Shown here piece by piece: positions 12,078 through 19,014 of a stretch of DNA of 64,000 nt. The notes under the pieces were generated by a model. That model was not told where the DNA came from and made no database searches. It saw only the letters and a program-made list of their open reading frames with translations. This DNA comes from the human T2T-CHM13v2.0 reference genome, Homo sapiens. The stretch lies in assembly GCF_009914755.1 (NCBI RefSeq), contig NC_060929.1, one strand, 5' to 3'. How positions within the stretch are numbered: position 1 is the stretch's first letter; the number at the start of each line of letters is the position of its first letter. The position numbers were made by a program, and so were the translations under genes.

Positions 12078-12162
12078 GTAATCATGGAAGGCTTTTGCTT
12101 CACTTGAGTGTTCACATGTTTCACGTCTCTCTGGAGCTGCACAGTAGAGATCCCAAAATACA
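12078..12162 (-). CDS. SSBP2: SSBP2 coding exon (inferred exon 4), 85 bp, end of LUFS domain
   Basis: Minus strand reads ttacttttttag|TGTATTTTGGGATCTC...CATGATTAC|gtaagt. The first T completes Cys, followed by [28 protein letters not shown]. The PERRETCEH sequence matches my recollection of SSBP2 rather than its paralogues. Confidence 0.96.
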
Positions 12163-12695
12163 CTAAAAAAGTAATCATGGTAACATTAAGAAAATCATAC
12201 AACACCAATATGAGAAATCACAATTCCAAAAGTAGAAGACATGTTTTTCTTTATACAAAATGTTTTGTCTTCAGAACAGATATCTATCTGAAAGACTTAA
12301 ACGCAAGCAAGGCTCTTCATGCAATAACAGTGTTACCATCTAGCCATCTTTCAGAAATGCTAAATAAGACTTTTATAAAAAAAAATTTATAGCAATAATT
12401 TAAAAATTGTCATTCTTATAACTGGCTGTTTACATGATATAAAACACTTGATTGGAGTAGCTGTAATACTTTTCACAATTTTCCCATGAAGAATAGAAAC
12501 AGTAAATAATATCCTAATTTAATAATTAAGGAATCAAGTGGTCCATTGATTTTTTTACAGATAATTTTGTTGTCCAACTCATAGGCCAATACCCTGACCA
12601 TTAAATTATATTCTTTAAACAAATGTATTTTCTAAATAATGGTGTTTTTCCCCACAGTTACCAAAATAGTTTAGTAACTTTGAAAATACATTGTT

Positions 12696-13599
12696 GGGAG
12701 GAGCCAAGATGGCCGAATAGGAACAGCTCCGGTCTACAGCTCCCAGCGTGAGCGACGCAGAAGACGGGTGATTTCTGCATTTCCATCTGAGGTACCGGGT
12801 TCATCTCACTAGGGAGTGCCAGACAGTGGGCGCAGGCCAGTGTGTGTGCGCACCGTGCGCGAGCCGAAGCAGGGCGAGGCATTGCCTCACCTGGGAAGCG
12901 CAAGGGGTCAGGGAGTTCCCTTTCCGAGTCAAAGAAAGGGGTGACGGACGCACCTGGAAAATCGGGTCACTCCCACCCGAATATTGCGCTTTTCAGACCG
13001 GCTTAAGAAACGGCGCACCACGAGACTATATCCCACACCTGGCTCCGAGGGTCCTACGCCCACGGAATCTCGCTGATTGCTAGCACAGCAGTCTGAGATC
13101 AAACTGCAAGGCGGCAGCGAGGCTGGGGGAGGGGCGCCCACCATTGCCCAGGCTTGCTTAGGTAAACAAAGCAGCCGGGAAGCTCGAACTGGGTGGAGCC
13201 CACCACAGCTCAAGGAGGCCTGCCTGCCTCTGTAGGCTCCACCTCTGGGGGCAGGGCACAGACAAACAAAAAGACAGCAGTAACCTCTGCAGACTTAAGT
13301 GTCCCTGTCTGACAGCTTTGAAGAGAGCAGTGGTTCTCCCAGCACGCAGCTGGAGATCTGAGAACGGGCAGACTGCCTCCTGAAGTGGGTCCCTGACCCC
13401 TGTGCCCCGAGCAGCCTAACTGGGAGGCACCCCCCAGCAGGGGCAGACTGACACCTCACACAGCCGGGTACTCCAACAGACCTACAGCTGAGGGTCCTGT
13501 CTGTTAGAAGGAAAACTAACAACCAGAAAGGACATCTACACCGAAAACCCATCTGTACATCACCATCATCAAAGACCAAAAGTAGATAAAACCACAAAG
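12696..13599. promoter_or_regulatory. L1 5'UTR CpG-rich bidirectional promoter (sense promoter and antisense promoter)
   Basis: YY1 site CAAGATGGCCG at 12705-12715 and high CpG density over about 12700-13200. The length matches UTRs lacking the 129-bp ZNF93-bound segment. Promoter activity is inferred from L1 family knowledge. Confidence 0.85.
12929..13144 (-). CDS. L1 ORF0 (71 aa), intact
   Basis: ATG at 13144 in the context GGGCAATGG. Translation MVGAPPPASLPPCSLISDCCASNQRDSVGVGPSEPGVGYSLVVRRFLSRSEKRNIRVGVTRFSRCVRHPFL* matches primate ORF0. Internal donors CCAG|GTGTGG (13039/13038) and CCAG|GTGCGT (12954/12953). Confidence 0.88.
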   Translation of the reverse strand: MVGAPPPASLPPCSLISDCCASNQRDSVGVGPSEPGVGYSLVVRRFLSRSEKRNIRVGVTRFSRCVRHPFL

Positions 13600-14616
13600 A
13601 TGGGGAAAAAACAGAACAGAAAAACTGGAAACTCTAAAACGCAGAGCGCCTCTCCTCCTCCAAAGGAATGCAGTTCCTCACCAGCAACAGAACAAAGCTG
13701 GATGGAGAATGATTTTGACGAGCTGAGAGAAGAAGGCTTCAGACGATCAAATTACTCTGAGCTACGGGAGGACATTCAAACCAAAGGCAAAGAAGTTGAA
13801 AACTTTGAAAAAAATTTAGAAGAATGTATAACTAGAATAACCAATACAGAGAAGTGCTTAAAGGAGCTGATGGAGCTGAAAACCAAGGCTCGAGAACTAC
13901 GTGAAGAATGCAGAAGCCTCAGGAGCTGATGCGATCAACTGGAAGAAAGGGTATCAGCAATGGAAGATGAAATGAATGAAATGAAGCGAGAAGGGAAGTT
14001 TAGAGAAAAAAGAATAAAAAGAAATGAGCAAAGCCTCCAAGAAATATGGGACTATGTGAAAAGACCAAATCTACGTCTGATTGGTGTACCTGAAAGTGAT
14101 GTGGAGAATGGAACCAAGTTGGAAAACACTCTGCAGGATATTATCCAGGAGAACTTCCCCAATCTAGCAAGGCAGGCCAACGTTCAGATTCAGGAAATAC
14201 AGAGAACGCCACAAAGATACTCCTCGAGAAGAGCAACTCCAAGACACATAATTGTCAGATTCACCAAAGTTGAAATGAAGGAAAAAATGTTAAGGGCAGC
14301 CAGAGAGAACGGTCGGGTTACCCTCAAAGGAAAGCCCATCAGACTAACAGCGGATCTCTCGGCAGAAACCCTACAAGCCAGAAGAGAGTGGGGGCCAATA
14401 TTCAACATTCTTAAAGAAAAGAATTTTCAACCCAGAATTTCATATCCAGCCAAACTAAGCTTCATAAGTGAAGGAGAAATAAAATACTTTATAGACAAGC
14501 AAATGCTAAGAGATTTTGTCACCACCAGGCCTGCCCTAAAAGAGCTCCTGAAGCAAGCGCTAAACATGGAAAGGAACAACCGGTACCAGCTGCTGCAAAA
14601 TCATGCCAAAATGTAA
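13600..14616 (+). pseudogene. L1 ORF1 (RNA-binding chaperone), disrupted by a nonsense codon
   Basis: MGKKQNRKTGNSK...NHAKM. An in-frame TGA at 13927-13929 (CGA>TGA) splits it into 109-aa and 218-aa ORFs. Confidence 0.95.
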
Positions 14617-14655
14617 AGACCATCGAGACTAGGAAGAAACTGCATCAACCAATGA

Positions 14656-18506
<3,851 letters not shown>

Positions 18507-19014
18507 ACAATGAGATCACATGGACACAGGAAGGGGAATATCACACTCTGGGGACTGTGGTGGGGTCGGGGGAGGGGGGAGGGATAGCATTGGGAGATAT
18601 ACCTAAGGCTAGATGACGAGTTAGTGGGTGCAGCGCAGCAGCATGGCACATGTATACATATGTAACTAACCTGCACAATGTGCACATGTACCCTAAAACT
18701 TAGAGTATAATAAAAAAAAAAAATTAAAAAAAAAAAAAAAGAAAATACATTGTTAACACTTCTTTTTTTCTCCTATTCAAGAACAGTGGGAAGTGAAGCA
18801 GACTGGGGGGGAAAAATTATGCTCCTTACAAAACATACAGCTCTGGTCATCCTTCCATCTACTAAATTAACAATGAGCACATACAAGGATTCAAAAATCA
18901 GGAAAGCAAATGTTTTAAAGTGTTGGCTATAAATAAAGGCAATTACAATTATCGATAGAGTTATTTTTTTATTCCACATTTCCCACCTATAAAAGTGGAA
19001 GGTAGATTAAGACA

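What the first reader, a model, noticed from the sequence alone, without database searches (positions are those of the whole stretch)
12078..13144. Predicted in-frame L1 ORF0-SSBP2 fusion driven by the L1 antisense promoter
Seen: the L1 5'UTR lies about 530 bp from the exon 4 acceptor, with its antisense promoter pointing in the SSBP2 direction. ORF0 is intact and has a strong Kozak context (GCAATGG). Its downstream donor TCC AG|GTGCGT (last exonic base 12954) is phase 2, which is the phase exon 4 requires. Splicing across a 791-nt intron (12953-12163) gives ...VTRFS-S(AG+T)[18 protein letters not shown]..., i.e. 63 ORF0 residues plus Ser replacing about the first 66 residues of SSBP2. Known: L1 antisense promoters produce spliced chimeras (e.g. 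L1-MET), ORF0 can fuse to nearby exons, and the SSBP LisH/LUFS domain mediates dimerisation and LDB1 binding. Inference: L1 demethylation (embryo, germline, tumours) could produce a hominid-specific SSBP2 isoform lacking LisH that cannot join the LDB1 complex normally. I cannot tell whether it has already been reported.
Basis: partly seen in the sequence, partly recalled or inferred. Interest (0 to 1): 0.82.

Follow-up and report, generated by a model that had tools for sequence, protein, structure and literature searches.

The report
L1 antisense promoter feeding SSBP2 exon 4
A young L1 retrotransposon inside the human SSBP2 gene can start backwards transcripts that splice into SSBP2, and one splice choice would give an in-frame ORF0-SSBP2 protein, but such transcripts from this locus are already catalogued and the protein itself is unproven.

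Summary
The sequence observation holds. A full-length L1 (12696-18740, + strand, perfect 14-bp target-site duplications) lies antisense in SSBP2, 530 bp from exon 4. ORF0 (13144-12929, 71 aa) is intact with GCAATGG at its start. The donor CAG|GTGCGT (last exonic base 12954) is phase 2, and joining it to exon 4 (12162) reads ...RFS-S-VFWDLY... in the SSBP2 frame.

The kind is known: ORF0 has two internal splice donors and forms fusions with nearby exons (Denli 2015, as described by later papers). The locus is also known.
- Criscione 2016 Table S7 lists two NT2 embryonal-carcinoma ESTs that start antisense in this L1 and overlap SSBP2 exons. They are flagged as previously identified, but filed in the category where another EST suggests exonisation.
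- Lanciano 2024 shows this L1 promoter unmethylated in 2102Ep, half-methylated in H1 and methylated in ten other lines.

Not shown: which donor the ESTs use, or any protein. One EST starts downstream of the ORF0 AUG. By U1 pairing the strongest donor (12891) lies after the ORF0 stop, and the other ORF0 donor (13039) is out of frame. Frame compatibility has a 1-in-3 chance.

Verdict: an ordinary, probably minor, member of a known class. Interest is low to moderate.

The parts
12696..18740 (+). Full-length L1 (6045 bp with its A-tail), annotated L1HS in hg19 and hg38. It lies antisense to SSBP2 in the intron upstream of exon 4.
   Evidence: It is flanked by perfect 14-bp target-site duplications. 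The 5'UTR is 907 nt with 39 CpG, observed/expected 0.52. In this assembly ORF1 carries one in-frame stop and the ORF2 frame is lost. Published flank and L1 primers match at 12583-12602 and 12719-12738, giving the published 156-bp amplicon. That identifies the element as hg38 chr5:81616090-81622140.
12682..12695 (+). 5' target-site duplication, with its twin at 18741-18754.
   Evidence: The two 14-mers are identical and are the only two copies in the window.
13145..13300 (-). L1 antisense-promoter start zone that would include the ORF0 AUG (L1 nt about 453-608).
   Evidence: The 5' end of EST DA725935 maps to about 13188 and that of DA727994 to about 13076. This comes from mapping hg19 coordinates with the L1 anchor, and is good to a few nt. 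There is no AUG between 13300 and 13145. Criscione reports antisense starts within the first 600 bp of the 5'UTR, the primary one at about nt 400.
12929..13144 (-). ORF0: 71 codons plus stop, with the start codon at L1 nt 452-450.
   Evidence: The numbering agrees with Garza 2023, who place the middle base of the ORF0 start codon at nt 451. Criscione gives the length as 71 aa. There is no Pfam family.
13031..13041 (-). First donor inside ORF0, CAG|GTGTGG, last exonic base 13039 (L1 nt 347). It is phase 1 and out of frame with exon 4.
   Evidence: It has 7 of 9 consensus matches and a U1 duplex energy of -7.1 kcal/mol.
12946..12956 (-). Second donor inside ORF0, CAG|GTGCGT, last exonic base 12954 (L1 nt 262). 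It is phase 2 and in frame with exon 4.
   Evidence: It has 8 of 9 consensus matches. Its U1 duplex energy is -7.8 kcal/mol, third of 66 GT sites.
12883..12893 (-). Third donor, CAG|GTGAGG, last exonic base 12891 (L1 nt 199). It lies 38 nt after the ORF0 stop, so its use leaves ORF0 unfused.
   Evidence: It has 8 of 9 consensus matches. Its U1 duplex energy is -11.6 kcal/mol, the best of 66 GT sites.
12163..12953 (-). Predicted 791-nt intron of the chimeric transcript. It comprises L1 nt 261-1 plus 530 nt of AT-rich unique flank and ends in the native exon 4 acceptor, ...CTTTTTTAG|T.
12078..12162 (-). SSBP2 coding exon of 85 nt. It enters in phase 2 and encodes residues 67-94: the end of the LUFS helix alpha3 and the start of the SSDP region.
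   Evidence: Hub annotation.

Best explanation
This is an ordinary instance of a known mechanism. A fixed, full-length young L1 sits antisense in an SSBP2 intron. Its CpG-rich bidirectional 5'UTR promoter is silenced by DNA methylation in most cells and is open in embryonal or pluripotent cells.

When the promoter is open, its antisense side starts transcripts that splice from L1 donors into SSBP2 exon 4. The result is 5'-truncated L1-SSBP2 chimeric mRNAs.

Only the subset that starts upstream of L1 nt 452 and also uses the donor at 12954 carries the in-frame reading ORF0(1-63)-Ser-SSBP2(67-end). The other combinations give ORF0 alone (donor 12891), an out-of-frame read (donor 13039) or no ORF0 start at all (starts near nt 400).

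The fusion protein is therefore permitted by the sequence, but it is probably a minor product and it is unproven. If made, it would lack the LisH dimerisation helices.

Shown: the anatomy, the frame, published ESTs and published methylation. Inferred: donor choice, translation, and loss of LDB1 binding.
For: Sequence:
- ORF0, the donor phases and the exon 4 frame are as stated.
- The element is full length with target-site duplications.
- The 5'UTR is still CpG-rich.

Locus identity: primers from Lanciano 2024 Table S3 match uniquely and give the published 156-bp amplicon.

Transcripts:
- Criscione 2016 Table S7 lists SSBP2 with ESTs DA727994 and DA725935. [quoted passage not shown]
- By my mapping, DA725935 runs from about 13188 (44 nt upstream of the AUG) to about 12088, inside exon 4.

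Methylation (Lanciano 2024):
- bs-ATLAS-seq values are 0.10 in 2102Ep, 0.56 in H1 and 0.85-0.99 in the other 10 of 12 lines.
- MeDIP gives 0.85% in 2102Ep against 14-38% in HCT116, MCF7 and K562.

Mechanism class:
- ORF0 has two internal donors and fuses to downstream exons (passages).
- 57 of about 3200 genic ORF0 loci were seen fused to a gene exon (Criscione passage citing Denli).
Against: - Criscione put SSBP2 in the table of cases where an independent EST supports exonisation of the L1 rather than initiation.
- Pinson 2022 Table S2 found only unspliced L1/flank read pairs at this locus: 6 reads in 2 of 8 gliomas and 1 read in 1 of 3 controls. The entry is marked LCT_validated FALSE and could simply be SSBP2 pre-mRNA.
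- Lanciano's table calls the sense L1 'not_expressed' in both 2102Ep and H1.
- None of the exons of the 89 RefSeq SSBP2 transcripts that the hub table lists lies in this L1 (hub annotation).
- EST DA727994 starts at about 13076, below the AUG.
- Criscione places the primary antisense start at about nt 400.
- Donor 12891, after the ORF0 stop, pairs best with U1.
- For the best-studied analogue, L1-MET, the authors of PMC12032326 state that no stable truncated protein forms.
Confidence: 0.7

Rival explanations
1. The in-frame ORF0-SSBP2 protein is made at meaningful levels in embryonic, germline or tumour cells. It acts as a distinct SSBP2 isoform that cannot enter the LDB1 complex.
For: - The frame is open across the junction, the AUG has a strong context and no AUG lies upstream.
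- One NT2 EST starts upstream of the AUG.
- The promoter is unmethylated in embryonal carcinoma cells.
- An in-frame product would escape nonsense-mediated decay, unlike the alternatives (inference).
- LisH alpha1-alpha2 form the obligate SSDP dimer, and the dimer's alpha3 surface binds LDB (Renko 2019 passages). The fusion lacks residues 1-66.
Against: - Donor use and translation were not shown by any search.
- A competing donor that pairs better with U1 lies after the ORF0 stop.
- The primary antisense start at about nt 400 is below the AUG.
- The L1-MET precedent gives no stable protein.
- No main text links SSBP2 with ORF0, L1HS or LINE-1 chimeras. Searches found 0 papers, and one search found 1 unrelated paper.
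Confidence: 0.15
2. There is no antisense-promoter initiation at this copy. The ESTs and read pairs come from SSBP2 pre-mRNA, or from SSBP2 transcripts of the normal promoter that exonise a piece of the antisense L1. Their apparent 5' ends are truncated cDNAs.
For: [quoted passage not shown]
- The Pinson read pairs are unspliced and on the gene strand.
- A crude scan finds an acceptor-like site at 13103. Paired with donor 12954 it would make a 150-nt, stop-free cassette in frame between exons 3 and 4.
Against: - Two independent ESTs from the same embryonal carcinoma cell type both end inside the known antisense start zone, the first 600 bp of the 5'UTR.
- The promoter is unmethylated in another embryonal carcinoma line.
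- Criscione marks the transcript as previously identified.
Confidence: 0.12
3. Antisense-promoter transcripts are real but never encode the fusion. They start near L1 nt 400 or use donor 12891 or 13039. They are therefore non-coding, decay-prone, or at most encode ORF0 alone or an N-terminally truncated SSBP2 from a later AUG. Any effect comes through transcriptional interference with full-length SSBP2.
For: - EST DA727994 starts at about 13076 and lacks the ORF0 AUG. From that start the only AUGs before the end of exon 4 are a one-codon ORF and an out-of-frame AUG.
- The primary antisense start is at about nt 400.
- Donor 12891 has the best U1 pairing of 66 GT sites.
- The L1-MET literature describes interference with the host transcript and non-functional peptides.
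Against: - EST DA725935 starts at about 13188, upstream of the AUG.
- Donor 12954 has 8 of 9 consensus matches, and its U1 pairing (-7.8 kcal/mol) lies within the range of the three native SSBP2 donors in the window, -5.7 to -11.0 kcal/mol.
- Reviews state that the two donors inside ORF0 are used genome-wide.
Confidence: 0.3

Closest known systems
ORF0-exon fusion transcripts of primate L1 (Denli et al. 2015, Cell 163:583). The paper is not held here; it is known through passages in Criscione 2016, Hancks & Kazazian 2016 and a 2026 review.
   Same: The ORF0 is antisense, 71 aa, and starts at L1 nt 452-450. It holds exactly two consensus-like donors. A nearby host coding exon lies downstream on the same strand, and one donor is in frame with it.
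   Different: Use of the in-frame donor and translation are not shown for SSBP2. I could not see whether SSBP2 is among the 57 reported fusions.
L1-MET: an L1 antisense-promoter transcript from MET intron 2.
   Same: An intronic antisense L1 whose hypomethylated antisense promoter produces a 5'-truncated host transcript that starts downstream of the host start codon.
   Different: L1-MET is experimentally characterised and is reported not to give a stable truncated protein. For SSBP2 only two ESTs and methylation data exist. The SSBP2 junction is in frame with ORF0.
L1-BCAS3 and the other L1 chimeric transcripts of Lanciano et al. 2024.
   Same: An unmethylated young-L1 promoter acts as an alternative promoter for the adjacent exon. 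The SSBP2 L1 is in the same methylation atlas.
   Different: SSBP2 does not appear in that paper's supplementary files beyond the methylation and MeDIP tables. The word search of 9 files hit only files 4 and 5, and file 4 is cut in storage.

Membership tests
L1 antisense-promoter chimeric transcript | A young L1 (L1HS to L1PA8) with a complete 5'UTR, lying antisense to the host gene and upstream of a host exon. | tested here: met
   The element is full length with target-site duplications. The 5'UTR is 907 nt. It is annotated L1HS. It lies 530 nt from exon 4.
L1 antisense-promoter chimeric transcript | The transcript 5' end lies on the antisense strand within the first ~600 bp of the L1 5'UTR. 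| tested here: met
   The published 5' ends of the two NT2 ESTs map to about L1 nt 496 and 384. The coordinates come and the anchor; the mapping is mine and is good to a few nt. I did not see the raw EST sequences.
L1 antisense-promoter chimeric transcript | A splice from an L1 donor into an annotated host exon. | tested here: inconclusive
   Both ESTs come from the spliced-EST set and overlap SSBP2 exons. Their block structure, and so the donor used, is not in the table.
L1 antisense-promoter chimeric transcript | Initiation in the L1 rather than exonisation of the L1 within a longer host transcript. | tested here: inconclusive
   The locus is filed in Table S7 because an independent EST supports exonisation. 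No CAGE or 5'RACE data can be reached here.
ORF0-exon fusion protein | An intact ORF0 with an AUG in a good context. | tested here: met
   ORF0 is 71 aa with G at -3 and G at +4, and it is the first AUG.
ORF0-exon fusion protein | A donor inside ORF0 whose phase matches the downstream coding exon. | tested here: met
   Donor 12954 is phase 2 and exon 4 needs phase 2. The other internal donor, 13039, is phase 1 and does not match.
ORF0-exon fusion protein | The in-frame donor is actually used in transcripts that contain the ORF0 AUG. | not testable with these tools
   No EST sequences, RNA-seq or long reads are available. One of the 2 ESTs includes the AUG by my mapping.
ORF0-exon fusion protein | Evidence of translation (ribosome footprints or peptides). 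| not testable with these tools
   No such data can be reached here.
LDB1-binding SSBP/SSDP protein (LUFS domain) | The LisH helices alpha1-alpha2 that form the obligate dimer. | tested here: not met
   The fusion skips the exons at 46941-46869 and 33228-33167. The first of these gives a weak LisH match (PF08513, E 0.014), below the gathering score as expected for a 24-residue piece. Residues 1-66 are replaced. The role of the dimer is from Renko 2019 passages.
LDB1-binding SSBP/SSDP protein (LUFS domain) | The alpha3 residues that contact the LDB LCCD (V65, F66, L69, Y70 in fly numbering, the VFWDLY motif). | tested here: met
   The motif is encoded at the start of exon 4 and kept in the fusion. 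The N-terminal part of alpha3 and the dimer context are lost.

The most novel reading that the evidence does not exclude
A human-lineage L1 insertion has created a methylation-gated ORF0(1-63)-SSBP2(67-end) protein that is expressed in pluripotent or embryonal cells. It keeps the LDB-contacting VFWDLY segment and the whole C-terminal region but cannot dimerise through LisH. It therefore acts as a lineage-specific modulator, either dominant-negative or independent of LDB1, of the LDB-SSBP enhancer-looping and Wnt-enhanceosome core.
Probability: 0.06. Interest if true: 0.6.

Novelty: new member of a known kind. Interest (0 to 1): 0.3.

Why it matters
SSBP2 is a core partner of LDB1 in enhancer-promoter looping complexes. 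A transposon-born isoform without the dimerisation domain, switched on only when this L1 is demethylated, would be a neat example of L1-driven protein diversification in early human cells or tumours.

As it stands, the mechanism is textbook for young L1s and the chimeric transcript from this locus is already in a published catalogue. What remains open is a routine question: which donor is used, and is the product translated? The practical value is a concrete, checkable candidate for anyone surveying ORF0 fusions. It also carries a caution: junction reads alone cannot separate promoter use from exonisation at this locus.

Tried and rejected
**Papers not held**
- Denli 2015, Matlik 2006, Macia 2011, Speek 2001 and the id I recalled for Wheelan 2005 are not held.
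- I therefore could not see which earlier source lists L1-SSBP2, or whether it is one of the 57 ORF0 fusions.

**Supplementary files answered 'closed'**
- This happened for C-GATE PMC3472293, Adami 2025 PMC12791003 and Garza 2023 PMC10619931. These tables may name SSBP2.

**Earlier findings of the scan**

**Main-text searches**

| Search terms | Papers found |
|---|---|
| SSBP2 + antisense promoter + LINE-1 | 0 |
| SSBP2 + L1HS | 0 |
| SSBP2 + LINE-1 + chimeric | 0 |
| SSBP2 + retrotransposon + alternative promoter | 0 |
| ORF0 + SSBP2 | 1, an unrelated Staphylococcus paper |
| SSBP2 / L1PA2 / chimeric, any two of three | no listed paper linked SSBP2 to an L1 |

**Other dead ends**
- Pfam on ORF0 gave no family.
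- Kaer 2011 gave nothing on antisense L1 acceptors in the 5'UTR.

**Limits of the tools**
- No splice-site model such as MaxEntScan is available. I used consensus counts and U1 duplex energies as crude proxies.
- No primate genomes, EST sequences, RNA-seq, CAGE or Ribo-seq can be reached. Lineage specificity, donor use, start sites and translation stayed untested.
- I sent no structure or complex job. The fusion is a joined sequence, its C-terminal 13 exons and LDB1 lie outside the window, and a fold would not settle whether the RNA exists.
Full report
**1. Observation**

Reading the minus strand and listing ORFs confirms each sequence claim.
- ORF0 runs 13144..12929, 71 codons plus stop. Its start sits in TGGGCAATGGTGG, with G at -3 and G at +4.
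- The donor CAG|GTGCGT has its last exonic base at 12954, 191 nt from the A of the ATG. That is 63 codons plus 2 nt.
- Exon 4 (12162..12078, 85 nt) gives the SSBP2 reading only if its first base completes a codon. Joining the three annotated exons in the window gives one open frame...HSWW-C-VFWDLY....
- The 28 residues of exon 4 are identical to positions 67-94 of SSBP2 chain 8hib_A.
- The spliced frame reads ...RFS-S-VFWDLY... and stays open to the end of exon 4. The later exons lie outside the window.
- The intron is 791 nt and the unique flank between the L1 and the acceptor is 530 nt.

**2. The element**

The L1 proper is 12696-18740 (6045 bp). It is bounded by a perfect 14-bp target-site duplication that occurs only at those two places in the window.

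Its 907-nt 5'UTR keeps 39 CpG, observed/expected 0.52, whereas the 530-nt flank has one CpG.

In this assembly ORF1 has one in-frame stop at codon 110, and the ORF2 frame is lost after about 515 codons.

If L1 nt 1 is set at the masked start 12693, the ORF0 start codon falls at nt 452-450. That agrees with Garza 2023, who place the middle base of the ORF0 start codon at nt 451 (passages).

**3. Alternative donors and starts**

There are 66 GT sites on the minus strand between 13300 and 12166. Three of them match at least 7 of 9 positions of MAG|GTRAGT.

| Last exonic base | L1 nt | Position relative to ORF0 | Frame with exon 4 | U1 5' end duplex energy |
|---|---|---|---|---|
| 13039 | 347 | inside, phase 1 | out of frame | -7.1 kcal/mol |
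| 12954 | 262 | inside, phase 2 | in frame | -7.8 kcal/mol |
| 12891 | 199 | 38 nt after the stop | ORF0 left unfused | -11.6 kcal/mol, best of 66 |

- The first two fit the 'two splice donors within ORF0' of the literature (passages).
- The three native SSBP2 donors in the window range from -5.7 to -11.0 kcal/mol on the same measure.
- The U1 motif is recalled, and this measure is a crude proxy for donor strength.
- The in-frame donor is therefore plausible but not favoured.
- The ORF0 AUG is the first AUG for any start between 13300 and 13145. A start near 13075 lacks it and meets only a one-codon ORF and an out-of-frame AUG before the end of exon 4.

**4. What is already published on this locus**

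(a) Criscione 2016, BMC Genomics (PMC4908685). I saw passages, section 7 and supplementary Table S7.
- Table S7 lists SSBP2 with two NT2 ESTs: DA727994 (hg19 chr5:80738471-80912292, minus) and DA725935 (80911304-80912404, minus).
- The source is given as L1HS(+). [quoted passage not shown]
- Table S7 is the set kept apart because an independent EST supports exonisation of the L1.

(b) Pinson 2022 (PMC9396940, Table S2).
- It gives the L1HS as hg19 80911909-80917937.
- It reports an unspliced L1/flank chimera, with reads 0,0,4,2,0,0,0,0 in 8 gliomas and 1,0,0 in 3 controls.
- The entry is marked LCT_validated FALSE and LCT-EST literature FALSE.

(c) Lanciano 2024 (PMC10879037; Tables S2, S3 and an expression table).
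- The element is hg38 chr5:81616090-81622140, detected in 12 of 12 cell lines.
- Methylation is 0.10 in 2102Ep, 0.56 in H1 and 0.85-0.99 in the other ten lines. I assigned these values by the order of the cell-line list; the 2102Ep and H1 values are confirmed by the per-line table.
- MeDIP gives 0.85% in 2102Ep against 38.3% in K562, 18.9% in MCF7 and 14.2% in HCT116.
- The sense L1 is called 'not_expressed' in 2102Ep and H1. The hg38 copy is listed as intactORF1. One transduction is credited to the locus in Tubio 2014.
- Their two primers hit the window once each, at 12583-12602 and 12719-12738. The 156-bp spacing equals the published amplicon, so the locus identity is certain.

**5. Mapping the ESTs**

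I anchored hg19 80911909 to window 12693. The uncertainty is a few nt, from 0/1-based conventions and from where the repeat alignment starts.
- DA725935 spans about 13188 to about 12088. It begins about 44 nt upstream of the ORF0 AUG (L1 nt about 496) and ends inside exon 4.
- DA727994 begins at about 13076 (L1 nt about 384), about 68 nt below the AUG, and extends 174 kb downstream through later SSBP2 exons.
- So one of the 2 ESTs could encode ORF0. The tables do not give exon blocks, so the donor used is unknown.
- Criscione states that L1HS antisense ESTs start within the first 600 bp, with the primary start at about nt 400 (section 7). Many antisense transcripts therefore begin below the ORF0 AUG.

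**6. Consequence for the protein (inferred)**

- The skipped exons encode ...[24 protein letters not shown]... This gives a weak LisH match (PF08513, E 0.014), below the gathering score as expected for a 24-residue piece. They also encode the start of helix alpha3.
- Renko 2019 (passages) show that alpha1-alpha2 form an obligate LisH dimer. They also show that alpha3 residues V65, F66, L69 and Y70 (fly numbering, the VFWDLY motif) are needed for LDB LCCD binding.
- That motif is at the start of exon 4 and would be kept. The dimer that presents it would be lost.
- Loss of normal LDB1 binding is therefore likely, but it is not a simple 'domain absent' case.
- ORF0 itself has no Pfam family. ORF0p is described as nuclear and close to PML bodies (Honda 2020 passage citing Denli).

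**7. Comparison with what is known, and novelty**

- The mechanism belongs to the class of L1 antisense-promoter chimeric transcripts and ORF0-exon fusions.
- Criscione, citing Denli, gives 57 of about 3200 genic ORF0 loci with an observed exon fusion.
- The L1-SSBP2 chimeric transcript is catalogued and flagged as previously known.
- From the shares of Criscione's reference sets (57 of the 89 published transcripts are Denli's; 45 published and 37 C-GATE entries were re-found), I estimate roughly a one-in-three chance that SSBP2 is already in Denli's fusion list. This is inference.
- In main texts I found nothing that links SSBP2 to ORF0, L1HS or LINE-1 chimeras.
- The best-studied analogue, L1-MET, is reported to give no stable truncated protein (passage).

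**8. Verdict**

- Antisense-promoter-driven L1-SSBP2 transcripts very probably exist in embryonal carcinoma cells.
- The in-frame ORF0-SSBP2 product is allowed by the sequence but rests on an unverified start and donor choice. Its frame match had a 1-in-3 prior. There is no evidence of translation.
- It is a new, or possibly already listed, member of a known kind.
- 'Hominid-specific' was not testable. The annotation says L1HS, while the 3'UTR carries GAG at 18618-18620 where, from recall, the youngest human subfamilies carry ACA or ACG. The age is therefore uncertain.

Noticed in passing
window 13927-13929 (ORF1 codon 110) and about 16225 (ORF2): In this assembly the L1's ORF1 has one in-frame stop after 109 codons, and the ORF2 frame is lost after about 515 codons. 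Lanciano 2024 lists the hg38 copy as 'intactORF1' and credits the locus with one transduction in Tubio 2014. This may be an allelic difference between assemblies.
   Followed up: partly
window 18618-18620: The L1 3'UTR reads GAG at the trinucleotide that, from recall, is ACA in Ta and ACG in pre-Ta L1HS. Yet hg19 and hg38 annotation call the element L1HS. Subfamily and age are therefore uncertain, and so is whether the insertion is human-specific or shared with other apes.
   Followed up: no
window 13103 (minus strand, L1 nt 411): There is an acceptor-like site, a 12 of 15 pyrimidine tract followed by CAG, inside ORF0. Paired with donor 12954 it would define a 150-nt, stop-free cassette in phase with SSBP2 exons 3 and 4. 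That would be an in-frame exonisation inserting 50 residues into helix alpha3. It may relate to the exonisation EST that placed this locus in Criscione's Table S7.
   Followed up: no
window 13295-13297 to 13145 (minus strand): The ORF0 frame is open for 50 further codons upstream of its AUG, back to a TAA at 13297-13295. No other AUG lies in that stretch.
   Followed up: no
hg38 chr5:81591849-81598022, outside the part of the window studied: Lanciano's table lists a second full-length L1 (L1PA4, + strand) in SSBP2. It is methylated at 0.81-0.98 in all 12 lines, including 0.89 in 2102Ep. The hypomethylation is therefore specific to the younger element and is not a property of the whole gene body.
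   Followed up: no
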